From Rhodoferax sp. (GTDB lineage: Bacteria > Pseudomonadota > Gammaproteobacteria > Burkholderiales > Burkholderiaceae_C): 62,151 bases of DNA. The notes under the pieces were generated by a model that worked only from the letters and a program-made list of their open reading frames with translations, was not told the origin of the DNA and ran no database searches. Shown here one piece after another: positions 1-53,133 of the stretch. The stretch lies in NCBI GenBank assembly GCA_044339205.1, contig JBIIVW010000001.1:1-62151 (forward strand), in the 5' to 3' direction. The translations under genes were made by a program, and so were the position numbers. Position 1 is the stretch's first letter. Each line of letters opens with the position of its first letter.

Positions 1-159
1 GCTTCCATGGGTGAGCGGGCGCAGGTGGCCGAGTCCATTGACTTGCTGGTCGCCCAAGTGGTTGCGCAGGCCCGCCCCGGCGACCACCTGGTGTGCATGA
101 GCAATGGCGGCTTTGGCAGCATCCACCTCAAACTGCTGGAAGCACTTCGAAATCAATAG
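1..159 (+). CDS. mpl: UDP-MurNAc:tripeptide ligase (murein peptide ligase), 3' end only
   Basis: Frame 1 reads ...ARPGDHLVCMSNGGFGSIHLKLLEALRNQ*, the characteristic Mpl C-terminal MSNGGFG motif. The stop is TAG at 157-159. Confidence 0.88.
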   Translation, partial: ASMGERAQVAESIDLLVAQVVAQARPGDHLVCMSNGGFGSIHLKLLEALRNQ

Positions 160-206
160 CTACCAAGTCAATAGGTTCGCCGGCTAGAGGCCAAAATGGC
201 CTCTTA
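143..206 (+). repeat. 64-bp dispersed bipartite motif; supplies the mpl stop codon
   Basis: cacttcgaaatcaatagc-N18-gccggctagaggcc-aaaatggcctctta. Confidence 0.85.
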
Positions 207-224
207 ACCCTCTAAGTCAGCTGT

Positions 225-1364
225 TCAACGTGCGCGACGGGCCACAACCGCCTGCGACAGCACCTCAAGCGAGGCCAGCGAGTCGTCCCAGCCCAGGCAA
301 GCGTCGGTGATGCTCTGGCCATACGCCAGCTTGGAGGCATCGTCTTTGCCGGGCGTGAACTTCTGGGCACCGGCCTTCAAGTGACTCTCCACCATCACAC
401 CAAACACGCTGGTTGAACCGCCGGTAATTTGGCTGGCGATGTCTTTCGCCACTTCCAGTTGCTTCTCGTGCTGCTTGCTGCTGTTGGCGTGGCTGCAATC
501 CACCATCAAGGTGGCAGGCAGTTTGGCCTTGATCAGATCCTGGCAGGCCGCCTCGACGCTGGCGGCGTCATAGTTGGGCGCCTTGCCACCGCGCAGGATG
601 ACGTGGCAGTCCGGGTTGCCGTGGGTTTGCACAATCGCCACCTGGCCGTTTTTGTGTACCGACAAAAAGTGGTGTCCACCAGCTGCAGCCTGAATGGCGT
701 CGGTGGCTATTTTGATATTTCCATCGGTGCCGTTCTTGAAGCCAATCGGCGCCGACAGGCCGGAAGCCAACTCGCGGTGAACCTGGCTTTCGGTGGTGCG
801 CGCACCAATGGCGCCCCAGGAGATCAAGTCACCCAGGTACTGGGGAGAAATCACGTCCAGAAACTCGCTGCCAGCAGGCAGGCCCAGGCGGTTGATCTCT
901 ATCAGCAACTGGCGGGCCATGCGCAGACCTTCGTCAATGCGGAAGGTCTCGTCCAGGTAGGGGTCGTTGATCAGCCCTTTCCAGCCTACCGTGGTGCGGG
1001 GCTTCTCGAAGTACACGCGCATCACGATCTCCAGCGTGTCGGCGTACTTCTCGCGCTGCACCTTGAGTTGACGGGCGTATTCCAGGGCGGCCGCAGGATC
1101 ATGGATCGAGCAAGGGCCGATGACCACGAGCAAACGGTCGTCGTTGCCGGCCATGATGTCGTGAATACGGCGGCGCGTGTCACTGATGAGCGCCTCAACG
1201 GGCGTGCCCTGAATCGGGAAAAAACGGATCAAATGCTCTGGAGGAGGCAACACGGTGATGTCCTTGATGCGTTGGTCATCGGTCTGGCTAAGGCGGTCGT
1301 TGGGGCGGGCAGTGGCTTGCGCATACCAACTGTCCGCTGGGACTGCTGTGGCTTCTGATTTCAT
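225..1364 (-). CDS. aroG: 3-deoxy-7-phosphoheptulonate (DAHP) synthase, class I
   Basis: Motifs GPCSIHD, MRVYFEKPRTTVGWKG, GARTTESQVHRE, DCSHANS and SITDACLGW. The feedback isoform (aroF/G/H) cannot be resolved from sequence. Confidence 0.95.
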   Translation of the reverse strand: MKSEATAVPADSWYAQATARPNDRLSQTDDQRIKDITVLPPPEHLIRFFPIQGTPVEALISDTRRRIHDIMAGNDDRLLVVIGPCSIHDPAAALEYARQLKVQREKYADTLEIVMRVYFEKPRTTVGWKGLINDPYLDETFRIDEGLRMARQLLIEINRLGLPAGSEFLDVISPQYLGDLISWGAIGARTTESQVHRELASGLSAPIGFKNGTDGNIKIATDAIQAAAGGHHFLSVHKNGQVAIVQTHGNPDCHVILRGGKAPNYDAASVEAACQDLIKAKLPATLMVDCSHANSSKQHEKQLEVAKDIASQITGGSTSVFGVMVESHLKAGAQKFTPGKDDASKLAYGQSITDACLGWDDSLASLEVLSQAVVARRAR

Positions 1365-1395
1365 GGTGAGGCTCCTAGGTCAAAGTAATCGAGGC

Positions 1396-1436
1396 AAAAA
1401 AGCAAAAAAAAACCGCCGGGGGTGCCGGCGGTTTTT
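1396..1436 (-). terminator. Intrinsic terminator of the DAHP synthase leader (attenuator)
   Basis: The minus strand reads AAAAACCGCCGG-CACCC-CCGGCGG-TTTTTTTTT, about 40 nt upstream of the start codon. Confidence 0.85.
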
Positions 1437-1466
1437 GGAAGATCAGGACGTTTTTTTCAGGTACGT

Positions 1467-1535
1467 TCAGAACTCTCTACCGCCGCAGGCGCTTGAGAAC
1501 CAAAAATAGCTAAAGAAAAACTGAACCGAATTCAT
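1467..1535 (-). CDS. Aromatic-rich leader peptide, 22 aa: MNSVQFFFSYFWFSSACGGREF
   Basis: Hand translation gives 6 Phe, 1 Tyr and 1 Trp. It lies directly upstream of the terminator and DAHP synthase. Confidence 0.85.
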   Translation of the reverse strand: MNSVQFFFSYFWFSSACGGREF

Positions 1536-1571
1536 GGATAGGAATGTAGCACAGTGGGGCTTGAGCCTGGC

Positions 1572-3032: not shown

Positions 3033-3041
3033 CTAAGTATT

Positions 3042-3932
3042 TTAGGGCTTGGGGTTTAGCCACTTGAACAACGCGGCATCATCTTCATGCGCCAGGCCGG
3101 CTCGGGCGGCCCCATCGAACACATCGCGTACGCGCGCGCCTAGCGGGCCTTCAAAGCCGGCGGCCATTGCGGCCTGGATGGCCAGACGCGTGTCTTTTTG
3201 AAGCAGCGTCATGTGGGCGCGGGGCTCAAAGTCGCCAGCAATGGCGCGGCGCATCCGGTCTGATCCGATCCAGCTTTGCCCGCTGGACTGCTCGATCACA
3301 GCCAGCGTGGCCGCCAGATCGAGGCCCATTTTTTGGGCCATCACCATCACCTCAGCGGTCCCCACAAGGTTGATGCCTGCTGCCAGGTTGTTGACCAGCT
3401 TGGTGCGAGCCCCGTCGCCCACCCGCTCACTGATGCGGTGCACCTTGTTCGACAAAGCCTCGAACAGGGCTTGATGGCGCTCAAAAACCTCGTTGGCGCA
3501 GGCCACCATCAGGCTCATGCTGCCCTCGCGTGCCCGGACCGGGCCGCCCGACATGGGCGCATCCACCGTGTGCACGCCCAAGGAGGCCAGGCGCCGGGCC
3601 AAGTCTTCCACCTCATCCGGCGCCAAGGTGGGGCACAGCATCACCACCTGACCCGGTGACAGCGCGGGGGCGATTCCCTGCGGCCCGAACAGCACCGCCT
3701 CAGTCTGCTCGGCGTTCACCACACAGACGATGGTTACTACTGAATCAATAGCTGCCTGAGCATGATTGATGCCGGCTAGAGCCCCAAAAGACACCAAACC
3801 TTGTACTTTGGCCTCATCCAGATCCACCACCCGGACCGGCCAGCCCAGCGCCAGCAAACGGTGCGCCATGCCAGCACCCATATTGCCCACACCAATCACT
3901 GCAATCGGAAACCGGGGCGCAAGGGTAGTCAT
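3042..3932 (-). CDS. NAD(P)-dependent oxidoreductase, 3-hydroxyisobutyrate dehydrogenase family
   Basis: IGVGNMG Rossmann motif, DAPMSGG, KLVNN and KD motifs. The real start is ATG 3932, overlapping the rodA stop (ATGA). Confidence 0.88.
   Translation of the reverse strand: MTTLAPRFPIAVIGVGNMGAGMAHRLLALGWPVRVVDLDEAKVQGLVSFGALAGINHAQAAIDSVVTIVCVVNAEQTEAVLFGPQGIAPALSPGQVVMLCPTLAPDEVEDLARRLASLGVHTVDAPMSGGPVRAREGSMSLMVACANEVFERHQALFEALSNKVHRISERVGDGARTKLVNNLAAGINLVGTAEVMVMAQKMGLDLAATLAVIEQSSGQSWIGSDRMRRAIAGDFEPRAHMTLLQKDTRLAIQAAMAAGFEGPLGARVRDVFDGAARAGLAHEDDAALFKWLNPKP
3735..3798 (+). repeat. 64-bp motif copy, antisense within the oxidoreductase CDS
   Basis: tactactgaatcaatagc-N18-gccggctagagccc-caaaagacaccaaa. 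Confidence 0.85.
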
Positions 3933-5083: not shown

Positions 5084-5127
5084 TCCCGAATTATCCCGCG
5101 ACCAGCCCCGGACAGCGGGTCCGCCCT

Positions 5128-5760: not shown

Positions 5761-5802
5761 CGGCGGCAGCGAGACCAGAAATGTCGCCTTGACCGGGCCA
5801 AA

Positions 5803-7014: not shown

Positions 7015-7057
7015 GAATCACCCATCAAGTTAAGACTCTTTACTCTAGGTTGCTCTT

Positions 7058-7097: not shown

Positions 7098-7166
7098 GAA
7101 GCACCTGCGACACCTGAGCGAGTCGTCGTACACGGCCGATCCGCAGGCCATGGGAGAATCACGCCC

Positions 7167-9233
7167 ATGTTTTTATTGTTTGAAGAAGCCGGAAAATTCA
7201 TGGCCGGTCGGGTGCTGTCAGAAGCGGAGTCTTCTGTACAGGTGGAGTTGGACAGCGGCAAGCGGGTCAAGGTCAAGACGGCCAACATCTTGCTGAAATT
7301 TGAAAAACCGTCGCCAGCGCAGATGCTGCTGGAGGCGCAGGCTGTCAGCGACACCATCGAGCTGGAAATGGCTTGGGAATTTTCGCCTGAAGAGGAGTTC
7401 GGTTTTGCCGAGCTGGCGCGTGACTATTTCAGTGAGCAAGCCACGCTGGCTCAGCAGGCGGGCATGCTGGTGCGCCTGTTTGAAGCGCCGCACTACTTTC
7501 GCCGCGCCGGCAAAGGGCGGTTTCGCAAGGCCCCGGCCGACATCATCGCGCTGGCTCTGGCCGCCATTGAGAAAAAGAAACAAATTGCGCTGCAAACCGC
7601 GCAGTGGGTCAAGGACCTGAGCGAGGGTACTTGCCCGCAAGCCATCCGCGACCAGCTCTACAAAATCTTGTTCAAGCCCGACAAAAACGCGGCTGAATAC
7701 AAGGCCGTGGTGGAGGCCTCACGCGCCACGCACCTGGGGCCGCTGGAGCTGCTGATCCGGGCTGGTGCCATTGACTCGCCGTATCAGTTCCACTGGCGGC
7801 GCTTCTTACTGGAGAACTTTCCGAAGGGCACGGGATTTCCCAAGCTCGAAGCCCCGCTCATCAAGGACGAGCTGCCTTTGTCAACCGCGCGGGCGTTTTC
7901 GATTGACGACTCGGCCACCACCGAGATTGATGACGCGCTCTCGGTGCAGGGCCTGGGCACCGGCACGATTGTGCTGGGCATTCACATCGCCGCGCCGGGC
8001 TTGGCCGTGTTGCCAGGCAGCCCCATTGACCAAATGGGCCGCAACCGCCTCTCGACCGTGTACATGCCAGGCTACAAAGTCACCATGCTGCCCGACGATG
8101 TGGTGCAGGCCTACACCTTGATGGAAGGGCGCGATTGCCCGGCCGTGTCGCTGTATGTCACGCTGGATGAAGCCACACTGACCATCACCGGCAGCGAAAC
8201 CCGGCTGGAGCGGGTGCACATTGGCGCCAACTTGCGCCATGACCAGCTCGACGCCATCGTCACCACCGAGTGGCTGGAAGACCCGGCGTTTGAGCACCAA
8301 ATGGACCCCCAGCCGCTGATTAACAAGCGTCCACAGCTCTCATTTTTGCACCGCCTGGCCAAGGACCTGAAAGCCAAGCGCGAAGTGGTGCGCGGCAAGC
8401 CCGAGAACTTCAACCGCCCCGATTACAACTTCAAGCTGGTTGGCAACGACGGCGCCGAGCCTCAGGGCACCGAGCAAGTAAGCATCAGCGTGCGTCAGCG
8501 TGGCGCGCCGCTGGATTTGATCGTGTCCGAGGCCATGATTCTGGCCAACAGCACCTGGGGCGGCTGGATGGCCGAGCTGGGCGTGCCCGGCATTTACCGC
8601 AGTCAGGCCTCCATGTTGCCCGGCGTCAAGGTGCGCATGGGCACCCGGGCGCTGCCGCACGCGGGCTTGGGTGTCAAAAGCTACGCCTGGAGCACCTCGC
8701 CCCTGCGCCGCTACACCGATTTGGTCAACCAGTGGCAAATCATTGCCTGCGCGCGTCACGGCAACACGGCCGCGCTGGTGGCGCCGTTCAAGCCCAAAGA
8801 TGCGGACCTGTTTTCGATCATCTCCAGCTTTGATTCGGCTTACTTTGCTTACAACGATTACCAGCGCGCGATTGAGCGCTTCTGGATTCTCAAATACGTG
8901 CAGCAGCAGGGCATCACCGAGATTGAGGCCACCGTCTTTAAGGACAACATGGTGCGCGCTGATGAGTTGCCCCTGGTGCTGCCGGTCATGGGCGGGCAAA
9001 ACCTGCCACGCGGCGCGCGGGTGCGCGTGAAGCTGGGTGATATTGATGAAGTCACGCTGGACGTGGTGGGCACCGTGCTGGAGCGCCTGGACGCCCTGCC
9101 CGAAGCGACCGATGCCACGGACGATGCCGGTGATGAAGACGAGGTCTCCGCCGGGCCCATTGCGATCGCCGTGGACATGACCGAAGGCGAAGGGGCTGGC
9201 ACGCCGCCCGCTGGCGATAATACTGCCCCGTGA
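7167..9233 (+). CDS. RNB-domain (RNase II family) ribonuclease
   Basis: FSIDDSATTEIDDA catalytic motif, EAMILAN, TSPLRRYTDL. Confidence 0.9.
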   Translation: MFLLFEEAGKFMAGRVLSEAESSVQVELDSGKRVKVKTANILLKFEKPSPAQMLLEAQAVSDTIELEMAWEFSPEEEFGFAELARDYFSEQATLAQQAGMLVRLFEAPHYFRRAGKGRFRKAPADIIALALAAIEKKKQIALQTAQWVKDLSEGTCPQAIRDQLYKILFKPDKNAAEYKAVVEASRATHLGPLELLIRAGAIDSPYQFHWRRFLLENFPKGTGFPKLEAPLIKDELPLSTARAFSIDDSATTEIDDALSVQGLGTGTIVLGIHIAAPGLAVLPGSPIDQMGRNRLSTVYMPGYKVTMLPDDVVQAYTLMEGRDCPAVSLYVTLDEATLTITGSETRLERVHIGANLRHDQLDAIVTTEWLEDPAFEHQMDPQPLINKRPQLSFLHRLAKDLKAKREVVRGKPENFNRPDYNFKLVGNDGAEPQGTEQVSISVRQRGAPLDLIVSEAMILANSTWGGWMAELGVPGIYRSQASMLPGVKVRMGTRALPHAGLGVKSYAWSTSPLRRYTDLVNQWQIIACARHGNTAALVAPFKPKDADLFSIISSFDSAYFAYNDYQRAIERFWILKYVQQQGITEIEATVFKDNMVRADELPLVLPVMGGQNLPRGARVRVKLGDIDEVTLDVVGTVLERLDALPEATDATDDAGDEDEVSAGPIAIAVDMTEGEGAGTPPAGDNTAP
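8290..8353 (-). repeat. Degenerate 64-bp motif copy, antisense within the RNB gene
   Basis: cggtgcaaaaatgagagc-N18-agcggctgggggtc-catttggtgctcaa. Confidence 0.6.
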
Positions 9234-10087
9234 ACCTCCGGTCTTTCAGCCCCCTGCAACTGGCGCTTGGCGTCTCGGTGGCCGTGCACGCGGTGCTGCT
9301 GACGGTGCGTTTTGTCGACCCCGAGGCCTTCAACCGCGTGTTCGAGGACACGCCGCTGGAGGTGATTCTGGTCAACGCCCGCACCACCCAGCAGCCGGAA
9401 AAAGCCACGGCTATCGCCCAGGCGGCCATGGCCGGCGGGGGCGATGCAGAGCGTGGGCGGGCCACCAGCCCCTTGCCTCCGGCCCTGATCTCTACCACCG
9501 GGGACGACGTGCAAGACGAGGCGCAGCGCCAGCTGGAAACCCTGCAGGAACAGCAAAACCTGATGCTGGCCCAGATCAAAAGCCAGCTTGCCGCCCTGCC
9601 CCCTCGCGACCCCAAGCGGCCTACCCTGACGCCTGAGCAGGCCGAACGAGAGCAAAAGCGGCGCCAGTTGATCAAATTGCTGGCCGAAATCGAGCGGCGC
9701 ATCAACGAGGAAAATTCCCGGCCCAAAAAGCGCTACATCAGCCCGGCCACGCGCGAAGAAAGCTACGCCGTGTACTACGACAAGCTGCGCCGCAGCATTG
9801 AAGACAAGGGCACCGAGAACTTCCCCGAAGTCGCCGGCAAGAAGATGTATGGCGAGCTGACCATGGTGGTGACCGTCAATTTTGACGGGCGCATCGTGGC
9901 CACCGAAATCGTGCAAAGCTCCGGCAACCGCACGCTGGATCGCCGGGCGGAGGCCATTGTGCGCAACGCCGGGCCTTTTGGCCGCTTCAATGACGCCATG
10001 CGCCGCAAGGCCGACCAGATTGCCGTGGTATCCCGATTCAAATTCACCCGCGACGAAACGCTGGAAACCCAACTCACCGCCAAATGA
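9230..10087 (+). CDS. TonB family protein (TonB C-terminal domain)
   Basis: N-terminal TM helix with SVAVH, C-terminal SSGNRTLDRRA motif; conserved position upstream of aroE. Confidence 0.85.
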   Translation: MNLRSFSPLQLALGVSVAVHAVLLTVRFVDPEAFNRVFEDTPLEVILVNARTTQQPEKATAIAQAAMAGGGDAERGRATSPLPPALISTTGDDVQDEAQRQLETLQEQQNLMLAQIKSQLAALPPRDPKRPTLTPEQAEREQKRRQLIKLLAEIERRINEENSRPKKRYISPATREESYAVYYDKLRRSIEDKGTENFPEVAGKKMYGELTMVVTVNFDGRIVATEIVQSSGNRTLDRRAEAIVRNAGPFGRFNDAMRRKADQIAVVSRFKFTRDETLETQLTAK

Positions 10088-10923
10088 CCCCATCGACTGA
10101 CCTCTATTGCGTGATGGGCAACCCCGTGGCGCACAGCAAATCGCCCTGGATTCACGCGCGTTTTGCAGAACTGACCGGCCAGAGCCTGCGGTACGAGAAA
10201 CGCCACATTGCGCTGGACAGCTTTGCAAGCGCCGTATATGCCTTTCGGGCCGAGGGCGGTCTGGGCTGCAACATCACCGTACCCTTCAAGTTTGAAGCTG
10301 CGGCTGTGGCTAGCCAGACCAGCGAGCGCGCCCTGCTGGCCCAGGCGTCGAACACCTTGCGTTTTGAAGGCGACGCCATCCTGGCCGACAACACCGACGG
10401 CATCGGCCTGGTCAACGACATTCAGCGCAACGCCGGCGTTGACTTGTGGGGCCAGCGCGTGCTGCTCATTGGCGCGGGCGGGGCGGCGGCGGGTGTTTTG
10501 GGGCCCTTGCTGCAAGCGCAACCCGCCCATATCACCGTGACCAACCGCACGCGGAGCAAAGCCACCGAGCTGGTCAACCGCCATGCGGCACTGGCTTTGC
10601 TACACAATACAGAGCTACTAACCCAAGAGATATGCCGGCTAGAGGGTGATTTTGATGTGATTATCAATGCCACAGCCAGTAGCCTGCAGGGCGGGTCTGT
10701 GCCCGTGCCGGCCAGCGTCTTGCGACCCGGCGCCCTGGCCTACGACATGATGTACGGCCCCGCCGCCGCTGAATTCATGACTTGGGCCCATGAGCACAGC
10801 GCCAGCCCGCGCGACGGCCTGGGCATGCTGGTGGAACAGGCCGCCGAGGCTTTTCTGATCTGGCGCGGTGTGCGCCCGCCCTCGCTGCAAGTGCTGGCCG
10901 AATTGCGCTCCAGCCTGAAATAG
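10084..10923 (+). CDS. aroE: Shikimate dehydrogenase
   Basis: GNPVAHSKSP, NITVPFK, NTDG, GAGGAA and GLGMLVEQA motifs. Confidence 0.96.
   Translation: MTPSTDLYCVMGNPVAHSKSPWIHARFAELTGQSLRYEKRHIALDSFASAVYAFRAEGGLGCNITVPFKFEAAAVASQTSERALLAQASNTLRFEGDAILADNTDGIGLVNDIQRNAGVDLWGQRVLLIGAGGAAAGVLGPLLQAQPAHITVTNRTRSKATELVNRHAALALLHNTELLTQEICRLEGDFDVIINATASSLQGGSVPVPASVLRPGALAYDMMYGPAAAEFMTWAHEHSASPRDGLGMLVEQAAEAFLIWRGVRPPSLQVLAELRSSLK
10598..10661 (+). repeat. 64-bp motif copy, sense within aroE
   Basis: tgctacacaatacagagc-N18-gccggctagagggt-gattttgatgtgat. Confidence 0.85.
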
Positions 10924-20498: not shown

Positions 20499-21488
20499 AT
20501 GTACCAGCCCCTAAAGAATCTCACGGCCAGCCAGCAAGTTGGCGCGCTTTTTTTCATCGTCTTTGGACTGTTGCTGCTGGCCAGCATCACCGCGGTGTTT
20601 CTGTCCCTGCGTGAGAGCGATGACAGCGCTGCCTCCGACCAGCGTCGGGCCGATCTGCACAATTTTGAAGGTGTGCTGCGCACCAGCTGGTTCATGGCGC
20701 TGGTGTTTTGGGTGGGCTGGCTCAGTGGGAATAAGGTGGCGCTGGTGCTTTTTGGCGGGGTCTCTTTCTTTGCGCTGCGCGAGTTCATGACCCTCTCGCC
20801 CACCCGCCGAGGCGACCACCGCAGCCTGGTGCTGGCGTTTTTTGTGGTGCTGCCGCTGCAATACTGGCTGGCTGGCAGCAAATATTTCAATCTTTTTACC
20901 GTGTTCATCCCGGTCTATGTGTTTCTGGCGATTCCCGTGGTAAGCGCTTTGGCGAATGACCCGCAGCGCTATCTGGAACGCAATGCCAAGCTGCAGTGGG
21001 GCATCATGGTGTGCATCTTCGGCATGAGCCATGTACCTGCGCTACTACTCTTGAACTTTCCCGGCTACACCCAACGCAGCGCTTTTTTGGTGTTTTTTCT
21101 GGTGCTGGTGGTTCAAACCTGCATGCTGGCCCAGCACTTGACCTCGCGCCGCCTGCGCCGCCCGCCTGCCGCGCCGCTCATCAGCCAGAGCTTCAATTGG
21201 CCGAGTTGGTGGGTGGGCATTGCCGTGGGCAGTGGCGTGGGCGGCTTGCTGGCGGGCATCACGCCGTTCATGCCGGGTCAGGCCATGGCCATGGCCTTCA
21301 TTGCCTGTGTGGCAGGATCGCTGGGGCACTTGGTGATGAAGGCGCTCAAGCGGGACCGGGGCATCCCGATCTGGCGCGGCCAGGGGCCGGCCATCACGGG
21401 GGCCGGTGGCTTGCTGGACCGGGTGGATGCACTGTGTTTTGCCGCCCCGGTGTTTTTTCACTCGGTTAGATGGTATTTCGGCCTCTAG
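20499..21488 (+). CDS. Phosphatidate cytidylyltransferase-like membrane protein with degenerate motifs
   Basis: Multi-TM; ALREF, KALKRDRGI and GGLLDRVD motifs; lacks the SPxKTxEG motif. Confidence 0.8.
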   Translation: MYQPLKNLTASQQVGALFFIVFGLLLLASITAVFLSLRESDDSAASDQRRADLHNFEGVLRTSWFMALVFWVGWLSGNKVALVLFGGVSFFALREFMTLSPTRRGDHRSLVLAFFVVLPLQYWLAGSKYFNLFTVFIPVYVFLAIPVVSALANDPQRYLERNAKLQWGIMVCIFGMSHVPALLLLNFPGYTQRSAFLVFFLVLVVQTCMLAQHLTSRRLRRPPAAPLISQSFNWPSWWVGIAVGSGVGGLLAGITPFMPGQAMAMAFIACVAGSLGHLVMKALKRDRGIPIWRGQGPAITGAGGLLDRVDALCFAAPVFFHSVRWYFGL

Positions 21489-21529
21489 CCGGCGTATTCA
21501 TTGCCTTCAAACAGTAACAATAAGAGCGA
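21466..21529 (-). repeat. 64-bp motif copy spanning the stop of the cytidylyltransferase gene and the ruvC 5' region
   Basis: Perfect core gccggctagaggcc (21480-21493, minus); its CTAG provides the TAG stop. The left arm is degenerate. Confidence 0.75.
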
Positions 21530-22090
21530 ATGAGAGTTTTAGGCATTGACCCCGGTCTGCGCACCACCGGCTTTGGCGTGATTGATGTGGACGGCTCCAA
21601 CTTGGCCTATGTGGCCAGCGGCACCATCAGCACCACCCACATCGAGAAGGATTACCTCCCCGCGCGTCTGAAAGTCCTGTTTGACGGTATCCGCGAGGTG
21701 GTGGGGCGCTATGAGCCCGATTGCGCCTCGGTGGAGATCGTGTTCGTCAACGTCAACCCCCAATCCACCCTGCTGCTGGGCCAGGCGCGCGGCGCAGCCG
21801 TATCCGCGCTGGTGTTTTCCGACCTGCCGGTGGCCGAATACACGGCGCTGCAAATGAAGCAAGCCGTGGTGGGGTACGGGCGCGCCGACAAAACCCAGAT
21901 TCAGGAGATGGTGCGCCGGCTGCTGACCCTGCCCGGCCTGCCGGGGTCGGATGCTGCCGACGCGCTGGGGCTGGCCATCACCCACGCCCATGCGGCCAAC
22001 TCCATTGCCCGACTGATGCAGGCCAAGGGCGTTGGTGGCGCGCAAAACCAGACCCAAAAAGCGGCTTACAAGGCGGGGCGGAGTCGCTGA
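21530..22090 (+). CDS. ruvC: Crossover junction endodeoxyribonuclease RuvC
   Basis: [24 protein letters not shown] and DAADAL motifs. Confidence 0.96.
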
Positions 22091-29369: not shown

Positions 29370-30451
29370 CGGGTCAACTCCTCACAGGCGGCCACGAGCT
29401 GGGCAACCGCATCTATTTTTTGCATCTTTTTGGCCTCTAGCCCGCACGTTAAAAGGGTTTCTCGTGTTGTTTTTTGTAGCATGTCAGCCAACCATTCAGG
29501 CGTCAATTGGGTTTGCGGCACCAGCCACCCGGCGCCATCACGCACCAGAAACTCGGCATTGACGGTCTGGTGGTCGTCCACGGCAAAGGGAAACGGCACA
29601 AACAGGGCCGCGGCGCCCACAGCGGCGATTTCAGTCACCGTGCTGGCACCGGCGCGGCAAATGACCAGGTCGGCATCGGCAAAGGCCTGGGCCGTGTCAT
29701 TGATGAACGGGGCGAGTTGCGCCTGCACACCGGCGGCCGTGTAGTTGGCTTGCAGGGCGTCAATCTGGCGGGCACCGCTTTGGTGGGTCACCACGGGGCG
29801 TTTGTCCGCAGGAATCAGGGCCAGTGCGCGCGGAACCACGTCGTTCAGGGCCTTGGCCCCCAGGCTGCCACCCAGCACCAGTACGTTGAGCGGCCCGCTG
29901 CGACCGGCAAAGCGAACCGCAGGGTCGGGCATGCGCAGGAAGTTGGCTCGCAAGGGGTTGCCGACCCACAGACCCTTTTTAAAGACATCCGGGAAGGCCG
30001 TGAAGATGCGGTCGGCCACGCCCGCCAGCACCTTGTTGGCCAGGCCCGCCACCGAGTTTTGCTCGTGCAGCACCAGCGGCTTGCCCAACAGCACACTCAT
30101 CATGCCGCCTGGAAAGCTGATGTAGCCGCCCAGCCCCACCACCACATCGGGCTTGACGCGGCGAACCACCTGAATGCTTTGCCAGAACGCCCGCAACAGA
30201 CGCACCGGCAGCAGCACCAGCGAGAGCCGGCCTTTGCCCCGCACGCCAGAAAAATCCACCGTTTCAAAGGCAAATCCCTGCGGCGGCACCAGCTGGCTTT
30301 CCATGGAGGGCTGCTCCGCGCTGCCCGTGCCACCCAGCCAGTGCACGAGCCAGCCGCGCTCCCGCAGGGCCTGCGCGACTGCCAAGCCAGGAAATATATG
30401 CCCGCCTGTGCCGCCGGCCATGACCAATGCAACCTTTTGTGCGACGCTCAT
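29366..30451 (-). CDS. murG: Lipid II GlcNAc transferase
   Basis: GGTGGH, HEQN, GGSLGA and RAGAST motifs. Confidence 0.97.
29418..29481 (-). repeat. 64-bp motif copy, sense within murG
   Basis: tgctacaaaaaacaacac-N18-gcgggctagaggcc-aaaaagatgcaaaa. Confidence 0.8.
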
Positions 30452-31704
30452 ACGCGGCCTCCGTGCATCAGGGTGCGGTTCTCGTAATCAATGCGCAACA
30501 CCACCGCCAGGGCGACCAGATTTACCAGGATCGCGGAGCCGCCATAGCTCATCAGCGGCAAGGTCAGGCCTTTGGTGGGCAGCGCGCCGAGGTTCACACC
30601 CATATTGATGAAGGCCTGAAAACCCATCCAGATACCCACGCCTTGCGACACCAGCCCGGCAAACACCCGGTCCAGCGCAATGGCCTGACGGCCGATGTGC
30701 ATCATGCGTCGCGTCAGCCAGACAAACAGGGCGATCGCAATCAAAACGCCCACCAAGCCAAATTCTTCGCCGATCACGGCCAGCAGAAAGTCGGTGTGTG
30801 CCTCGGGAAGCCAGTGCAACTTCTCGACGCTGCCACCCAGGCCCACGCCAAAAATCTCACCACGCCCGATGGCAATCAAGGAGTGGGTGAGCTGGTAGCC
30901 CTTGGCCAGCGCGTTTTGCTCGCTCCAGGGGTCCAGGTAAGCAAAGATACGCTCCCGGCGCCACTCGCTTGACGCAATGATCAAACCAAACGCCACGACC
31001 AAAATGGTGGCAATCAGGAAGAACATGCGGGCATTGACGCCGCCCAAAAACAGGATTCCCATGGCAATCACCGCAATCACCATGAACGCACCCATGTCCG
31101 GCTCGGCCAGCAGCAAGATGCCCACCACGCCCACCGCAGCGCCCATCGGCAGGACCGCGCGAAAGAAGCGCTCCTTGACCTCCATCTTGCGCACCATGTA
31201 ATTGGCCGCATAGAGCAGCACGGTGAATTTGGCCAGCTCGGACGGCTGAAAGCTGAACGGCCCGATGGATATCCAGCGACGCGCGCCGTACACCACCTTG
31301 CCTACATGGGGAATCAGCACCAGCACCAGCAGCGCGATGGACAGCACAAACAGCCACGGCGCAGCCTTTTCCCAGGTGGCCACAGGCACCTGAAACGCGA
31401 GCAGCGCGGCCACAAAAGCGATCACCAGCCACGCAGCGTGGCGCACCAGAAAGTAGGTGGGGGTGTAGCGGGCGAAGCGCGGGTTCTCCGGCATCGCAAT
31501 CGAGGCGGAATACACCATCACCAAGCCCCAGGCCAGCAGGGCCACGGTGACCCAGATCAAGGGCTGATCGAACCCCATCTCTCGGGTAGGCGCGCTGCCG
31601 GTCTCTGCGCGTCGTGTGGCCCCCAGGCGCACTGGCAGCACGTCGCCCACAGGCGCATTCAAACGGCCTGCCCAGGCCGACATGCGTTGAGCCAGGCCGC
31701 TCAC
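30448..31704 (-). CDS. ftsW: Peptidoglycan glycosyltransferase FtsW
   Basis: [20 protein letters not shown] and [15 protein letters not shown] motifs; the GTG start overlaps the murD stop. Confidence 0.95.
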
Positions 31705-33290
31705 AGCGAGTCCTCCATCTGCACGCCCGCTGCGTGGGCCATCTCCTGGACAGCCTCGCAAAACACACGGGCCCGGTGCTCGTAGTTGTCAAACATGTCA
31801 AAACTGGCACAGGCGGGGGACATCAACACCGCATCACCCGCATGGGCCTGCGCATTGGCCAGTAGCACGGCCTGAGGCATGGAATCGGCGTCCAAAAGCA
31901 CCACACCGGTGTCTTGCAGCGCGGCACGAATCAGCGGCGCATCGCGCCCGATCAGCACCACGGCACGCGCATGGCGCGCCACAGCCGAGGCCAGTGGCGA
32001 AAAGTCCTGGCCCTTGCCTTCGCCGCCCAGAATGGCGATCACCTTGCGGTCAGCTCCAAGGCCAGTCAGGGCCGCTGCCGTGGCGCCCACGTTGGTACCC
32101 TTGCTGTCGTCAAAAAACTCCACCTCGTTGAACAGGCCGATCGACTGCACCCGATGCGGTTCGCCCCGGTAGTCCCGCAGGCCATACAGCACCGGGCCCA
32201 GTGCGCAGCCCCCGACGCAGGCCAGAGCCAGCGCCGCCAACGCATTCAGTGCGTTGTGACGCCCGCGAATGCGCAGCGCATCAGCTGGCATCAAGCGCTG
32301 GATGTGAATTTCTTCGGCGGCCTCGTTGCGTTTGCGGCGGGTCTCGTCGGCTTCCAGCGCGCGCACGAGCCAGACCATGCCGTTGACTTCTTCCAGACCA
32401 AAATCACCGGGGCGTTGCGGCGCATCTCCGCCAAAGGTGACGTAGGGGCGCAGCACGGGACGCTGCAATTTGACCCGTACCGGTGCGGGCAGCAGGGCCA
32501 TCACGGTCGGGTCATCACGGTTGAGCACCATTAGCCCCTGCTGGCCAAAAATCTGGCGCTTGGCATGCACATAGGCGGCCAGGCTGCCGTGCCAGTCGAG
32601 ATGGTCCTGGGTGATGTTGAGCACCGTGGCGGCGGTCGGCTCAAAGCCGGTTTCACCGTCGAGCTGGAAGCTGGACAACTCAATCACCCAGACCTCGGGC
32701 AAGGTGCCGGCATCCAGGTGGGCGCTCAGGGTGTCCAGCAGCGTGGGGCCAATGTTGCCGGCCACGGCCACGGTCTTGCCGGCCCGGCTCACCAGCTGCC
32801 CGGTGAGCGCGGTGACGGTGGTTTTTCCGTTGGTGCCAGTGATGGCCAACACCTGCGGGTTGTAGCCCCGCTGGGCCTTCAGATCGGTCAAAGCTTGAGA
32901 AAACAAGCCTAACTCACCCCTAGCCGGCAGACCGATTGCTTTGGCACAGTCAAAAACAGGAGCAACCTCCAAAGGTGTCAAGCCCGGGCTTTTGTACACG
33001 GCAGACAGGTCAGCGCCGTCCACCAGGCTGGCGCTCAGCGGGCCGCTGATAAAACGGGCTTCGGGCACTTCGCGTTGCAGGGCTGCTAACTGTGCGGGGG
33101 CCTCGCGGGTGTCCGCCACCGTGACCCGGGCACCTGAGCGGGCGCACCAGCGCGCCATGGCCAGGCCGGAGAGGCCCAGGCCCAGAATCAGGACGTGTTG
33201 ACTGCCAAGCCGCTCCGCACCCGGCCACGCGAACGCGACAGCCGCCTCGGAAGGCAAAGCCGCTTGATCGTCAACGTGGAGCATGGTCAT
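31701..33290 (-). CDS. murD: UDP-MurNAc-L-Ala-D-glutamate ligase
   Basis: [28 protein letters not shown] and SPACASFD motifs; start about 33290. Confidence 0.95.
32901..32964 (-). repeat. 64-bp motif copy, sense within murD
   Basis: tgctcctgtttttgactg-N18-gccggctaggggtg-agttaggcttgttt. Confidence 0.75.
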
Positions 33291-42489: not shown

Positions 42490-42493
42490 GGTT

Positions 42494-47086: not shown

Positions 47087-47144
47087 CGTGCGGTAAGTGG
47101 GTTGACTTCAAAAGAGGGGAGTGTAGCGGCCAATGGTTTCCGGG

Positions 47145-48326
47145 TCATTTACGCATGACTACTAAACCTTTTAAGTATTCGCCTTCGGGGAAATTCAGCG
47201 TCATCGGATGGTCCGGGGCGCCGCCCAAACGTTCGGTGATGAATCCATCGACCCCGGCATCGCTGCCAGCAGAGGCCACGATCTTGTGGAACAAGTCCGG
47301 GCTGATGCCGCCCGAGCAGGAGTAGGTGAACAACACACCGCCGGGCGCCAGCAACTTGAAGGCCAGCCGGTTGATGTCCTTGTAGGCGCGGGCAGCGCGC
47401 TCGGCATGCGTGATGGTGGGGGCAAACTTCGGCGGATCCAGAACAATGGCGTCAAACACCCGACCCTGCGAGCCAAACTGGCGCAGCGAAGCATTGACAT
47501 CGGCGTCCATCCAGGTCGTGCGACTGGTGTCAAACCCGTTCAGGGCCACATTGGCGGCAGCCTTTTCCAGCGCAGGGCCCGAGGAATCAATCGAGGTGAC
47601 ATGGCTTGCGCCGCCCTGCAAAGCCGCCACCGTGAAACCGCCGGTGTAGCAAAAGCAGTTCAGCACCTGGTCAAACTTCAAGCGGCGGGTGAGGGCGGAA
47701 AATTTCTGGCGACTGTCTCGCTGGTCAAGGTAAAAACCGGTCTTGTGGCCGGTCGCGATATTGACGCCCAGGTGCCAGTCGTGCTCCCGCAACACCAACT
47801 CCACCGCGCCCTCCCCCCGCAACCAGCCCGTGACCTCAGGCAGGCCCTCCAGGGCCCGGCCACTGGCGTCAGAACGCTCATACAGGTTGGTGAGTCCGGT
47901 GGCGGCCAGCAGGGCGTCAGTCAGCACGTCTTTCCAGCGCTCGGCACCGGCTGAGAGAAACTGGGCCACCAGCGTGTCGCCGTAACGATCCACGATCAGG
48001 CCGGGCAAACCGTCCGACTCACCATGCACCAGCCTCAAACTGTCGCTATTGATATCAAAACGGCCTCTAGCCGACACAGCCACTGCACAGGCAGCTACAA
48101 AAAAAGAAGCATCAATTCGCTGAGCCTCATCAAAGCTCCACACCCGGGCCCGTATCTTGGAGGCCGGGCTGAACGCAGCCCACGCCAGAAAGCCCCCTTC
48201 ATGGGACTCCACCCGAACGGTTTCACCGGACTCGGCGCCCCCGGTAGCGATGGCGGATTCAAAAATCCAGGGGTGGTGGCGAGAGAGTGAGCGGTCTTTG
48301 CCCGGTTTGAGTCGAATCGTTTTCAT
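47145..48326 (-). CDS. rlmI: 23S rRNA m5C1962 methyltransferase (RlmI family)
   Basis: HPWIF, HKTGFYLDQR, LDPPKF, SCSG and EGEYLKG motifs. Confidence 0.88.
   Translation of the reverse strand: MKTIRLKPGKDRSLSRHHPWIFESAIATGGAESGETVRVESHEGGFLAWAAFSPASKIRARVWSFDEAQRIDASFFVAACAVAVSARGRFDINSDSLRLVHGESDGLPGLIVDRYGDTLVAQFLSAGAERWKDVLTDALLAATGLTNLYERSDASGRALEGLPEVTGWLRGEGAVELVLREHDWHLGVNIATGHKTGFYLDQRDSRQKFSALTRRLKFDQVLNCFCYTGGFTVAALQGGASHVTSIDSSGPALEKAAANVALNGFDTSRTTWMDADVNASLRQFGSQGRVFDAIVLDPPKFAPTITHAERAARAYKDINRLAFKLLAPGGVLFTYSCSGGISPDLFHKIVASAGSDAGVDGFITERLGGAPDHPMTLNFPEGEYLKGLVVMRK
48048..48111 (-). repeat. 64-bp motif copy, sense within rlmI
   Basis: tgcttctttttttgtagc-N18-gtcggctagaggcc-gttttgatatcaat. 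Confidence 0.85.
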
Positions 48327-48366
48327 GCGCGCATTGTGGGGCCAATTGGGCTCGACTCAACCTCGG

Positions 48367-48678: not shown

Positions 48679-48778
48679 TGAAAACCTCTGTGTAAATAAA
48701 GTGCAGTGTCGCCGAACTGAACACAGTTATCTGGAGAACGCTACCCAATCGGACTGCCGACAGGTTTCCCGGAGCAAG

Positions 48779-49771: not shown

Positions 49772-49779
49772 GGCCAGGC

Positions 49780-50466
49780 CTACCTCAGGCGCGACAGTGC
49801 GGCACCTGCCAACTCGGCAATGCGCTGCAGAAAATCAGTGGCCATCGCGCTGTTGAAGCGTTCGGCATCCGGCGAGGCAAGCACCAACATGCCATAGGCG
49901 GGCGTGGCACTGCCGCTTGGTCCCAAGCGCAGCGGCAAAATCGCCAGCGACACAGCAGCCTGCGGATCGGGCAACCAGCTGATCGCCTCAAAACCCGTGT
50001 TGAGGCCACAAAACGGCGCCATCAACGACGAAGCAAACAGCTTGGCGTCATCGCTCACGCCGTTGGCAAAGTCGGCATGGGCAAAGGCGGGCATCACGTC
50101 CCAAACCTTGATGCCTACCTGCGGAACTGCAAATTGCTCGGCAATCTCCCGCGCCATCTGGGTGGGTAGCGTCCACGGGTCGCTCACCATGAACAAGGTG
50201 CGCGCCCAGCGCAGGAGCTTGTCGGACAACACGACGTTGTCGTTGCCATTGCGGATCATGTCCATGATGCGCAGCTCCAGCGCCTTGATTTTCTCGCGCA
50301 GCATCACCGCCTGACGCTCCTGCAGGCTCACGGCCCGGGTGCTGTGCGGGCTGGTGAACTGCACGGCCGCCAGCAGCTCGGCGTGGCGCTCAAAGAAATC
50401 AGGCGTATTGGCCAGGTAATTGGCAATATCGTCTTCGGTGATCGGGTTGGTAAAGGAGGTGGTCAT
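49780..50466 (-). CDS. DUF484 family protein
   Basis: YL..PDFF..H..LL and VSLQERQ motifs; lies between dapF and xerC. Confidence 0.88.
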
Positions 50467-51338
50467 AGGGTGTCAGGTAAATCGATTTCGCCGCAAAACA
50501 CGGAGGTGGCCGGGCCGGTCATCATCACAGGCGATGCTGGAGAGGCCCAGGAAATGCTCAACACGCCGCCGCGGGTCTGAACCTCCACGGCATTGTCCAG
50601 CAAGCCCAGCCGGATGCCGGCCACCACGGCCGCGCAAGCACCCGTGCCGCAGGCCAGGGTTTCACCCGCGCCGCGCTCATAGACCCGCAGGCGGATGTGG
50701 TTGCGATCCACGACCTGCATGAAGCCCGCGTTGACCCGGCGGGGGAAACAGGGGTGGTGTTCGATCAGCGGGCCCTGCAAGCCTACCGGTGCGGCGTCCA
50801 GGTCATCCACCACCTGCACGGCATGGGGGTTACCCATGGACACCACTGATACTAAAACAGGAGCATCTGAGGCAATAGATACGCCGGCTAGAGGCCATTT
50901 TTGCCATAAACCAGTCGTTTGAGGCACCAAACCGGCATCAACAAAGGGAATTTGGGACAACTCAAACACGGGCAGACCCATGTTCACGGTCACGCGACCA
51001 TCTGCCGTGAGCCGGGGTTCGATCACGCCAGCCAGCGTCTGCACGCGGATCGTGTCCTGGGTGCTCAGGCCCTGGTCGCGCACAAAGCGGGCAAAGCAGC
51101 GCGCACCGTTGCCGCATTGCTCCACCTCGGTGCCATCGGCGTTGTGGATCACGTATTCAAAGTCAATGCCGGGTCCGGGCGAGGGCCGCACCGTCAGAAT
51201 CTGATCGGCCCCGACGCCAAAGCGGCGGTCGGCCAGCAAGCGGTAGTGCGCGGGGGTCAGGGCGTAGCGCGTGGCAGTCTCATCCAGCACGACAAAGTCG
51301 TTGCCGGCGCCCTGCATTTTGGTAAACGGAATTCGCAT
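50463..51338 (-). CDS. dapF: Diaminopimelate epimerase
   Basis: [21 protein letters not shown] and [13 protein letters not shown] motifs; start ATG 51338. Confidence 0.96.
50847..50910 (+). repeat. 64-bp motif copy, antisense within dapF
   Basis: tgatactaaaacaggagc-N18-gccggctagaggcc-atttttgccataaa. Confidence 0.88.
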
Positions 51339-51444
51339 GCCATGAATTATCCCCGTATCTACAGATATCTCCGGCGCGACACTTCGCCCGGCCGAGAAAG
51401 AAAACGACCCCAAAGCGCCCCCGAATTCGGTGCAAAATCTGAAA

Positions 51445-53133
51445 ATGCCCAGACTTAACCAACTCCTTCACCCCGCTCGTACGCCCGCCCCCACCCGACC
51501 TGCCGCCACCGTGCTGCTGCTGCGCGATGGCGCCGCCGGGCTGGAGGTGCTGATGACGCGCCGCGCCATGACGGCCAGCTTTGCACCGGGCGCCTACGTC
51601 TTTCCGGGCGGCGGCGTGGACGCGCTGGATGCCCAGAGCCACGCCCAGGCCAGCCGGCGCAGCACGCAGAGCGAGCTGCACCTGACCCAGGCGATTGCGG
51701 CCATTCGGGAAAGTTTTGAAGAACTGGGCGTGCTGCTGGCCCGCCACGCAGACGGCAGATTAGCCAGCCAGCACGACATTGCGGCATTCAGCCGCAGTGC
51801 GCCCTTTGTGAGCCAATGCCAGGCGCGGGGACTGACCCTGGCTGCAGCCGAGGTCTTTGTGCTGGCCCACTGGATCACCGACCGTGACCTGCCGCGCCGC
51901 TTTGACGTCCCTTTTTTGGTGGCCCGCATGCCCGACGGCCAAACCCCCGTGGCCGACGAAGCCGAGCAGTTTGAGCCGGTGTGGGTGCGCCCGGCCGACG
52001 CGCTGGCGCGCCATGCTGCGGGCGAGTTTTTCATCATCTTTCCGACCATTCGCACGCTGGAGCGCCTGGTGGACCATGCCACCGTGGACGCCGTGCTGCA
52101 GTTGTGCGCTGCCACCGAGCAGCCCCTGTGGACCAGTTGCCCCCGTGCCGGCATGCTGGCCGGCCGCGAAGCGCGCTACATGGAACATGAACAGCCTTAC
52201 GGCGAACTGGCGCTGGTGTGCCCGGACGGGCAAATCGAACACGCGCTGGACTGGCAGACCGAACAGCCCGTGGCGTTATTGAAAAACGTCATGCGACTGA
52301 CCGCCCCCAACCCCGGCGTGATGACTGGCCCCGGCACCAACAGCTACCTGGTGGGCGACCCCGACACGGGCTATATCGCCATCGACCCCGGTCCGGCCGA
52401 CCCCGACCACATCGACAAACTGTGGCGCGCCGCAGGCGGCGACATCCGCATGATTGTGTGCACCCACTCGCACGCCGACCACTCGCCTGGCGCCCGACCC
52501 CTGCAAATGCTGTGCGAGCAGCACGGCAAGGCGCCGCCGCCCATTCTGGGCCTGCCAAGCGCGCCCACTGCCCGCACGGCCAGCGAGTTCACCCCGGACA
52601 GGTCACTCCTGAATAATGAGCTACTCACCCTTACAAGCTGCCGGCTAGAGGCGGATTTGGCATTAAATTCAAGCCATACGCTGCAAGTGATCCACACCCC
52701 CGGCCATGCGGCCAACCACCTGTGCCTGGTGTTGCTGGAAGACGGCCTGCTGTTCAGTGGCGACCACATTTTGAACGGCAGCACCACCGTGATTGACCCG
52801 CCGGATGGCGACATGACCGCCTACCTGGACTCGCTGGACCGGCTGGCCCAAGCCTGCGCCGAGCAGCACATCGACTTCATTTTGCCGGCCCATGGCTACG
52901 TGATGGGCGGCTATGAAGGAGAAGCCGCTGGAGCCATCGCCCACCTCAAGGCGCACCGCCTGAAGCGCGAAGCCAAGATCATCAAGGTCATGCAGGCACA
53001 GCCCCAGGGCACGCTGGACTCCTGGGTCCAGAGCGCCTATGACGATGTGCCGCCGCGCCTGTGGCCAGTGGCCAAGCGCTCGCTGATGGCGCATGTGGCG
53101 CGCATTGAAACCGAGATGCTGCTGGGGTCCTAG
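51445..53133 (+). CDS. NUDIX hydrolase / MBL-fold metallohydrolase fusion
   Basis: [13 protein letters not shown] Nudix box; THSHADH, HTPGH, SGDH and PAHG MBL motifs. Confidence 0.9.
52604..52667 (+). repeat. 64-bp motif copy, sense within the NUDIX-MBL gene
   Basis: cactcctgaataatgagc-N18-gccggctagaggcg-gatttggcattaaa. Confidence 0.85.

What the first reader, a model, noticed from the sequence alone, without database searches (positions are those of the whole stretch)
143..52667. A fixed-geometry 64-bp bipartite DNA motif dispersed every few kb, mostly inside essential genes
Seen directly: clear copies at 143(+), 3735(+), 10598(+), 21466(-), 29418(-), 32901(-), 48048(-), 50847(+) and 52604(+), and degenerate copies at 4598(-), 8290(-), 11788(-) and 37014(-). 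The architecture is an 18-bp imperfect palindrome YRCT-N11(AT-rich)-AGC, an 18-bp variable spacer, the core GCCGGCTAGAGGCC, and a tail with A/T tracts. The spacer sequence varies freely but its length does not. Ten of the 13 copies lie within ORFs (oxidoreductase, rodA, RNB nuclease, aroE, murG, murD, murE, rlmI, dapF, NUDIX-MBL), where they form AT-rich patches with rare CTA/AGA codons and the normally avoided CTAG. No transposase or target-site duplication is visible. Inference: this is a DNA-level code layered over the protein code, most likely a genome-wide site for a protein contacting two boxes (nucleoid organiser, topoisomerase/SMC loading, uptake or recombination signal). A domesticated repeat is the alternative. 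I recall similar intergenic repeats in other Comamonadaceae but know of no described function.
Basis: partly seen in the sequence, partly recalled or inferred. Interest (0 to 1): 0.9.

Follow-up and report, generated by a model that had tools for sequence, protein, structure and literature searches.

The report
Genome-wide DNA tag overprinting Comamonadaceae genes
A roughly 70-base DNA signal recurs about 470 times in this bacterium's genome, is written over protein-coding sequence in species-specific dialects, and sits at the centre of a common integron cassette of unknown function; it is likely a protein-read tag, most likely one that would mark the cell's own kind of DNA for uptake.

Summary
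Corrections: the spacer is not free, and only 39% of copies lie wholly inside genes (85% expected). It is not an inserted repeat. Orthologous genes are mostly gap-free at the sites, and motif-rich relatives keep the same site in their own dialect, changing amino acids to do so. Copies show no subfamilies or hairpin covariation; mirrored half-sites vary independently, and a 10.0-bp A/T-phased tail runs about 100 bp on one side. It is confined to Comamonadaceae in the searches made and was lost several times. New link: the DUF1010 integron cassette (1,840 of 72,556 plasmids, e.g. between dfrA12 and aadA2) shows no coding signature and carries one copy at a fixed offset; multi-copy arrays were seen only in motif-rich genomes. 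Best reading (0.42): a long DUS/USS-like self-DNA uptake tag. Close rival (0.33): the site of an unknown chromosome-organising homodimer. No reader protein was found. Not found in 10 literature searches.

The parts
139..209 (+). motif copy, 58.0 bits; overlaps the end of a short + ORF and lies just past the 3' end of the DAHP synthase gene (225-1364, -), a convergent junction
3731..3801 (+). motif copy, 50.9 bits; inside NAD_binding_2 dehydrogenase gene 3042-3932 (-), antisense; no true orthologue retrieved
8287..8357 (-). motif copy, 26.8 bits; inside RNB nuclease gene 7167-9233 (+), antisense; gap-free against 5 of 5 relatives
10594..10664 (+). motif copy, 54.3 bits; inside aroE 10084-10923 (+); same site in G063 and G054 in their own dialects, absent in G007, G049, G061
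21463..21533 (-). motif copy, 45.2 bits; mostly non-coding subtype (left box shifted 1 bp, no AGC); spans the end of the cytidylyltransferase gene 20499-21488 and the start of ruvC at 21530
29415..29485 (-). motif copy, 45.6 bits; inside murG 29366-30451 (-); gap-free against 20 of 20 relatives
32898..32968 (-). motif copy, 30.7 bits; inside murD 31701-33290 (-); gap-free against 20 of 20 relatives, with dialect-coupled residue changes
48045..48115 (-). motif copy, 49.0 bits; inside rlmI-like methyltransferase gene 47145-48326 (-); gap-free against 5 of 5 relatives
50843..50913 (+). motif copy, 63.1 bits; inside dapF 50463-51338 (-), antisense; gap-free against 5 of 5 relatives
52600..52670 (+). 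motif copy, 52.9 bits; inside NUDIX-metallo-beta-lactamase gene 51511-53133 (+); its 3' end lies in a loop of variable length among relatives

Best explanation
The motif is a double-stranded DNA site of about 70 bp with a 10-bp-phased A/T tail, kept at old positions by base substitution rather than by insertion, and it most likely works as a long self-DNA uptake tag for natural transformation, like the DUS and USS of Neisseriaceae and Pasteurellaceae. Shown: the site, its three odd-centred pseudo-dyads, the tail in this genome, overprinting of coding sequence, dialects, repeated loss, and carriage in integron cassettes with no coding signature. Inferred: a receptor reads the dyads and bends or wraps the flanking DNA; fragments with a better site are taken up and recombined more often, which pushes each locus towards the receptor's current preference even at the cost of amino-acid changes (molecular drive); loss or relaxation of the receptor lets sites decay; site-only cassettes spread because they are preferentially imported and then inserted by IntI without needing homology.
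For: Overprinting with dialect-coupled residue changes at 6 of 7 testable window genes. Sites sit in poorly conserved protein stretches, about 30 points below gene-average identity. In-gene copies use mainly two frames, 148 of 185. No strand or replichore polarity, 106 of 191 leading in two complete genomes, p=0.15. In-gene copies are uniform along transcription units, 0.508 vs 0.500, p=0.80, n=75. Pairs closer than 500 bp are depleted, 11 vs 23.5 expected, and sites near low-GC3 genes are 5.1 vs 15.7 per 100 kb. Information 49 bits vs 14 needed to find the sites. A G/C-rich core followed by helically phased A/T tracts, as described for USS (PMC3458573, passages). PMC4212676 (passages and section 21) reports selective uptake in Verminephrobacter eiseniae and own-species-only transformation in Acidovorax temperans, naming no uptake sequence in the passages read; the A. 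temperans genome has 98 strict hits and an integron array in which 8 of 10 units are site-only cassettes. ComEC is found in 57 of the 60 genus relatives; in G000 its last 26 residues lie at a contig end.
Against: The site is far longer and sparser (1 per 3.5-8 kb) than DUS/USS (lengths 9-32 bp in the papers read; about 1 per kb, recalled). Mirrored, independently varying half-sites suggest a homodimer, which is not how ComP is known to read DUS (recalled). A. facilis and A. defluvii share one dialect, so dialect does not obviously explain the species barrier in PMC4212676; the A. temperans rows were not listed in that call. No inverted-pair terminators as in Neisseria. V. eiseniae itself was not checked. 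The cassette's fixed 99-bp left arm is not predicted by uptake alone, and short cassettes may amplify simply because they are short.
Confidence: 0.42

Rival explanations
1. The site is bound inside the cell by an unknown homodimeric nucleoid or topology protein (one to three dimers on the dyads) that bends and wraps 100-150 bp of DNA every 3-8 kb; each site is kept by weak selection, and site-only cassettes supply sites to foreign arrays or help attC recombination geometry.
For: Odd-centred dyads at -31 and -8 with mirrored half-site variants drawn independently on each side in G102, n=71. Two binding modes: 290 copies with AGC at -25 and 84 with the left box shifted and no AGC. One-sided tail with period 10.0 bp (95% 9.9-10.1), amplitude 0.060 vs null 0.013, in coding and non-coding copies. 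Regular spacing. Orthologous positions kept across genera. Fixed offset from the attC crossover. 34% of convergent gaps of 70 bp or more carry a site vs 15% codirectional and 5% divergent.
Against: No gradient along transcription units and no dependence on flanking unit length, p=0.88, so the convergent excess looks like free space. GyrA shows no diagnostic residue outside its variable tail in 4 motif-rich and 2 motif-poor genomes, and the E. coli gyrase motif is symmetric, degenerate, 130 bp and 10.75-bp periodic (PMC6379681, passages). HU/IHF copy number is about 3 in both groups. Fast dialect turnover and repeated loss are unusual for matS, SBS, NBS or parS systems (recalled). The tail period was not recovered in the small G054 and G102 samples (best 10.95 and 10.8 bp, low amplitude).
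Confidence: 0.33
2. The site is a self mark read by a defence or silencing system, so that DNA without a site every few kb is degraded or silenced; phages, plasmids and integron arrays gain sites to escape it.
For: Excess information and dialects; depletion near low-GC3 genes; full copies in about 25 of 60 viral-contig hits, beside repressor, nin, tail, terminase and methylase genes; site-only cassettes among foreign gene cassettes.
Against: Site-free stretches of 20-35 kb exist in G000; phage loci mostly hold one copy per 3-6 kb fetched, with no shared context; no candidate system was found or searched for by family.
Confidence: 0.11
3. The motif is an old REP/RPE-like repeat spread as single-stranded hairpins by a domesticated HUH transposase, now mostly immobile.
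For: A single-copy, about 235-aa Y1_Tnp gene with intact HUH and tyrosine motifs is present across the genus (59 of 61 genomes have a Y1_Tnp match), with a site right after its stop codon in G000 and in 6 of 10 motif-rich relatives; pseudo-palindromic shape; enrichment at convergent gaps.
Against: No 23-24-residue insertion at any in-gene site examined; mean pairwise identity of copies 0.474 equals independent draws, 0.472; no pair covariation in boxes 2 and 3 of G000 and no shared fold in 8 window copies; the Y1 gene is equally conserved in 10 motif-poor genomes and has no flanking repeat cluster. Box 1 does show some complementary excess (z 3-4 in G000, one pair z 6.5 in G054), which may reflect subtypes.
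Confidence: 0.08

Closest known systems
DNA uptake sequences: Pasteurellaceae USS and Neisseriaceae DUS
   Same: Dispersed, orientation-neutral, overprinted on coding sequence in permissive frames and poorly conserved stretches, family-restricted with dialects, depleted near foreign-looking DNA; G/C-rich core with phased A/T tracts as in USS (PMC3458573 passages; bioRxiv 10.1101/2025.10.24.684340 passages).
   Different: About 70 bp plus a 100-bp tail against 9-32 bp; 49 bits; sparser; three pseudo-dyads upstream of and around the core; no inverted-pair terminators; no receptor identified; uptake untested; also packaged as an integron cassette.
DUF1010 (PF06231) integron cassettes, recalled as orfD/orfF or gcuD/gcuF
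   Same: The cassettes in R46 (after blaOXA-2) and pMAK1 (dfrA12 - DUF1010 - aadA2) each hold one copy scoring 51-56 bits with the G054 and G102 matrices.
   Different: They are annotated as a protein family; here variability is equal at the three codon positions (0.162/0.174/0.164) and 1-bp indels compensate to keep length. The link to a chromosomal motif was not found in the papers searched.
Nucleoid-organising sites (matS/MatP, SBS/SlmA, NBS/Noc, parS) and strong gyrase sites
   Same: Protein-read dyads, some inside genes (recalled); phased A/T flanks that suggest wrapping.
   Different: Hundreds to about 1,300 copies, 70-140 bp, no ori/ter restriction seen, rapid dialects; tail period 10.0 bp and one-sided against 10.75 bp and symmetric for gyrase.
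REP/REPIN with RAYT, Rickettsia palindromic elements, and BRE of Betaproteobacteria
   Same: Pseudo-palindromic, enriched at convergent gene ends, some copies in ORFs; BRE is reported in Comamonadaceae (PMC3110155, section 14).
   Different: No insertion signature, subfamilies, tandem clusters in the chromosome or hairpin covariation. BRE is described as a 75-91-bp, 69% GC tandem repeat with at most 29 copies; its sequence is in a figure I could not see, so non-identity rests on those properties.

Membership tests
DUS/USS | promotes sequence-specific DNA uptake | not testable with these tools
   needs an uptake assay; only indirect literature, PMC4212676
DUS/USS | strong genome-wide over-representation on both strands | tested here: met
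   474 vs 0; 106 of 191 leading
DUS/USS | arises by substitution inside genes, in permissive frames and regions | tested here: met
DUS/USS | lineage dialects | tested here: met
DUS/USS | short motif of 9-32 bp, often in inverted-pair terminators | tested here: not met
   70 bp plus tail; only 5 neighbours closer than 250 bp
DUS/USS | cognate pilin receptor that tracks the motif | tested here: inconclusive
   PilE-like, FimT-like, HHH_3 and ComEC do not separate the groups; G000's pilin cluster is cut by assembly gaps
DUS/USS | bias to genome-maintenance genes | not tested
   no genome-wide annotation; sites beside gyrA, recA, smc and in comEC seen only anecdotally
REP/REPIN/RPE | copies arise by insertion | tested here: not met
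REP/REPIN/RPE | near-identical subfamilies and conserved hairpin | tested here: not met
REP/REPIN/RPE | cognate RAYT flanked by repeats and tracking them | tested here: not met
   Y1 gene conserved in both groups, one adjacent site only
Gyrase site | symmetric 130-bp degenerate motif with 10.75-bp period | tested here: not met
Gyrase site | cleavage by gyrase | not testable with these tools
   needs Topo-Seq
KOPS/Chi/matS/SBS-type polar or regional sites | replichore polarity or ori/ter restriction | tested here: not met
   54 of 91 and 52 of 100 leading; hits in all fifths, with a mild uneven pattern
Rfam RNA family | match at gathering threshold | tested here: not met
   only RNase P in the window
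Integron cassette (site-only form) | bounded by attC-like sites, IntI nearby | tested here: met
   IntI homologues beside arrays in G193 C3 (50% to IntI1) and G161 (48%), none in the other 10 of 12 stretches; annotated class 1 integrons

The most novel reading that the evidence does not exclude
Comamonadaceae carry a third, independently evolved self-DNA code, several times longer than any known uptake sequence, read by a dimeric protein that wraps about 150 bp. It has rewritten hundreds of enzymes in species dialects, and it has been packaged as a gene-less integron cassette, so that the DUF1010 cassette in about 1,800 plasmids is a stranded Comamonadaceae DNA address label and not a gene.
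Probability: 0.4. Interest if true: 0.95.

Novelty: new variant of a known kind. Interest (0 to 1): 0.86.

Why it matters
If it is an uptake tag, it is the first sequence-specific uptake code outside Neisseriaceae and Pasteurellaceae among the papers I could search, and it gives a direct test for the unexplained uptake selectivity reported in Verminephrobacter and Acidovorax. If it is a nucleoid site, it points to an unknown chromosome-organising protein with hundreds of long sites. Either way it shows a DNA-level constraint strong enough to change residues in core enzymes. It also offers a testable meaning, and a likely host family of origin, for one of the most common cassettes of unknown function in class 1 integrons, and suggests that DUF1010 is not a real protein family.

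Tried and rejected
Literature: 10 of 10 searches used, listings only unless noted. Terms covered Comamonadaceae with DNA uptake sequence, REP or intergenic repeat; Acidovorax, Polaromonas and uptake sequence; Comamonas testosteroni repeats; Verminephrobacter transformation; gyrase motif; USS receptor; Delftia and gene-less cassettes. None listed a description of this motif. Two reviews I wanted (cassette nomenclature; origin of class 1 integrons) were not held, so those names and claims are recalled. A Delftia paper on short non-coding cassettes is recalled but was not found, and subscription journals are mostly not searched, so the non-coding nature of these cassettes may be in print. No supplements were read. 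BRE judged different from its described properties. Rfam negative. Hairpin or RNA model rejected. RAYT-like Y1 gene, HU/IHF, ComEC, PilE-like, FimT-like, HHH_3 and GyrA did not track the motif. No DNA-binding gene stood out beside the 22 divergent-junction sites or close pairs; the LysR regex found only 3 proteins, so that check is weak. The expression-proxy test was discarded because it rested on 5 genes. The pMAK1 cassette has no sigma-70-like promoter match. BLAST of a G000 copy found nothing meaningful in plasmids and an Acidovorax copy nothing meaningful in isolated phages; the Acidovorax copy hit a few Comamonadaceae plasmids. Laying 4 metagenome runs showed no joints or ends informative about the sites. 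The first metagenome pattern had a wrong gap and found nothing.


Full report
Observation. I seeded a 71-position weight matrix on 311 core words in the window's genome (G000, 3.86 Mb, 396 contigs, 89.6% complete) and iterated it. It finds 474 sites at 20 bits or more, against 0 in the reversed genome and 0 in a block triplet shuffle; only 29 hits fall between 8 and 20 bits. Ten lie in the window. With the first G of GCTAGAGG as 0, the anatomy is: box 1, a 17-bp dyad GCTAY-N7-RTAGC centred at -31; a middle box centred near -8 whose right half is the dialect; the core; and A/T tracts at +12 and +22 inside a third weak dyad. Spacing is rigid. A second mode of 84 copies, 83 of them not wholly inside a CDS, has the left box 1 bp closer and no AGC.

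Footprint. AA/TT/AT steps keep peaking at about +33, +42, +52, +62, +72, +82 and +93. The period over +27 to +100 is 10.0 bp (95% 9.9-10.1), amplitude 0.060 against a phase-shuffled 95th percentile of 0.013, n=466, in coding and non-coding copies alike; the 5' side has only a weak signal, 0.014. Peaks to about +63 are visible in 119 pooled copies from other Comamonadaceae (122 loci less 3 chance hits), but the period was not recovered in 115 G054 or 71 G102 copies. A phased tail of this kind implies bent or wrapped DNA (inference).

Placement. 185 copies lie inside a CDS, 138 overlap an end and 151 are intergenic (gene calls are from my own dicodon model). Two frames hold 148 of the 185. Of gaps of 70 bp or more, 68 of 198 convergent, 124 of 852 codirectional and 22 of 405 divergent carry a site. 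This looks like free space, not supercoiling: in-gene copies are uniform along 579 closed transcription units (n=75, p=0.80) and convergent occupancy does not depend on flanking unit length (85 of 441, p=0.88). Close pairs are depleted and sites are three times rarer near low-GC3 genes. In two complete relatives 54 of 91 and 52 of 100 listed strict hits (of 112) are on the leading strand; counts per fifth of the replichore are uneven (24, 12, 15, 13, 27 in G031, KS p=0.14) but no region is empty.

Origin of in-gene copies. murG and murD are gap-free at the site in 20 of 20 relatives, and RNB, aroE, rlmI and dapF in 5 of 5; the NUDIX-MBL site ends in a variable loop and the dehydrogenase had no true orthologue. 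Motif-rich genomes keep the site at the same codons in their own dialect: murD reads WAAG in several, LPARG in G000 and IRAAG in G054; aroE reads ICRLEG, LQGLEA and LKGLEG. In motif-poor genomes the same codons have mostly returned to ordinary usage, with remnants in G049 and G013. In 400 kb each of G054 and G102 (another genus), site windows are about 30 points less identical than their genes; 28 of 64 windows (reciprocal, not independent) hold a gap against 6-10% of random windows, and the gaps shown for 16 genes are 1-15 residues in linkers, none a clean 23-24-residue insert. Among gap-free windows, 8 of 9 G000 sites are shared with G054 and 3 of 7 with G102. Copies are as unlike each other as independent draws (0.474 vs 0.472), apart from 13 pairs above 0.8 that I did not all inspect. 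An earlier unchecked note of this scan (e1-5203967) reported the same kind of overwriting in a Polaromonas gene; I tested the claim on other genes, not on that one.

Distribution. A strict 12-base pattern gives 20 or more hits in 27 of 60 genus relatives, 3-19 in 7 and at most 2 in 26; in one genome per genus across the family, 20 of 120 have 10 or more and 95 at most 2. A dialect missed by the pattern could hide some positives; a box-1-only pattern found 4-12 sites in 5 motif-poor genomes against 64 in G000. On a four-gene tree of 21 genomes the motif-poor ones fall in at least three places, with weak support at deep nodes. That G000 is a Comamonadaceae member is inferred from this. About 25 of 60 viral-contig hits are full copies on phage-like DNA with no shared gene context.

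Symmetry. Across species the middle box changes symmetrically (CCC/GGG in G054, CGC/GCG in G031), but within a genome the halves do not covary. In G102 both halves draw on the same mirrored variants (AGG, TTG, CCG, TTA) independently, z between -1.7 and +1. That fits a two-fold reader on duplex DNA and not a hairpin; 8 window copies share no fold. In G000 the right half has moved away from symmetry.

Integron cassettes. In the genome holding L059 (titled Acidovorax defluvii), copies recur at 318-320 bp between attC-like hairpins, mixed with gene cassettes. The unit matches 1,840 of 72,556 plasmid records, 1,805 over at least 80% of its length, mostly annotated DUF1010. R46 and pMAK1 (dfrA12 - DUF1010 - aadA2) each carry one copy at 51-56 bits and pYKBP039 six in tandem. 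Length between the attC cores is 273 bp in 28 of 30 (274 in the two clinical ones), with compensating 1-bp indels. In 38 unique metagenome cassettes, taken from 130 matches of which 76 were other or cut off, the offset from the crossover was the same in all, within a filter that allowed 85-115 bp; variability over 34 representatives is equal at the three codon positions, though the search pattern fixed part of the centre. A 216-bp form lacks about 55 bp just 3' of the motif and keeps the left arm. Full-length DUF1010 hits (E<1e-20) occur in 9 of 23 motif-rich and 1 of 52 motif-poor genomes, multi-copy in 5 motif-rich only (80 of 123 handles given; kin are not independent). IntI homologues lie beside two arrays. 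PMC11014356 (passages) says many such small cassettes probably contain no gene and leaves their role open.

Mechanism. That the motif is a protein-read duplex site kept by substitution is well supported (about 0.9). Which protein is open. The uptake reading explains neutrality to strand and transcription, excess information, dialects, amino-acid overwriting without a benefit at each site, repeated loss, and selfish site-only cassettes, and it meets a gap in PMC4212676 (passages and section 21). It is weakened by length, symmetry, a shared dialect in A. facilis and A. defluvii, and the failure of every competence gene tested to track the motif. The nucleoid reading explains symmetry, the tail and the fixed cassette geometry, but gyrase and HU/IHF show nothing and rapid dialects are unexpected. 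I give 0.42 and 0.33, with 0.11 for a defence self mark and 0.08 for a domesticated repeat.

Novelty. I do not file it as DUS/USS, since uptake is untested and the length criterion fails; it works like them in its genomic behaviour. It fails the REP/RAYT, gyrase-motif and polar-site tests. It was not found in 10 searches of the held library. Papers seen: PMC3110155 (passages, section 14), PMC4212676 (passages, section 21), PMC6379681, PMC3458573, PMC11551772, PMC11014356 and bioRxiv 10.1101/2025.10.24.684340 (passages). No supplements or figures were seen; the BRE alignment figure could bear on the BRE comparison. The names gcuD/gcuF/orfF, rlmI, aroE, murG, murD and dapF are my labels on Pfam hits or recalled.

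Noticed in passing
G000 C189:3383-4075 (L021); L315-L334: A single-copy RAYT-like Y1_Tnp gene of about 235 aa with intact HUH and tyrosine motifs sits upstream of a large conserved gene (recalled as gltB) in 20 of 20 relatives fetched, 69-84% identical, with no repeat cluster: a domesticated HUH protein of unknown role.
   Followed up: partly
L255, L258, L259, L261 (comEC genes): comEC holds one or two motif copies in 4 of 6 motif-rich genomes fetched; orthologous sites, so not independent.
   Followed up: partly
G000 C125:3430; L491, L492, L494: A site lies directly after gyrA in 4 of 4 motif-rich genomes and in neither of 2 motif-poor ones; sites also flank recA and smc in G000.
   Followed up: no
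G061:C55:18309 and G013:C26:107004: Residual box-1 sites in motif-poor genomes lie next to PilE-like pilin genes, which may mark recently exchanged pilin loci.
   Followed up: no
G000 C173:2716-4182: A second GyrA/ParC-like gene unlike the genus ParC orthologue, on a 4-kb contig; possibly contamination or a mobile gene.
   Followed up: no
L336:3352-4652: aadA-like and SMR-like cassettes lie among site-only cassettes in an integron-type array of an environmental Acidovorax genome.
   Followed up: no
window 56495-56875 (-): RNase P RNA gene (RF00010, 195 bits).
   Followed up: no
G069: MurG is only 55% identical to G000's while nearly all other genus members give 66-79%; long branch or replaced gene.
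   Followed up: no
G000 C229:1139-36627, C361:1-29055, C260:9735-35185: The longest site-free stretches (25-35 kb) have lower GC (0.52-0.57); gene content not examined.
   Followed up: no
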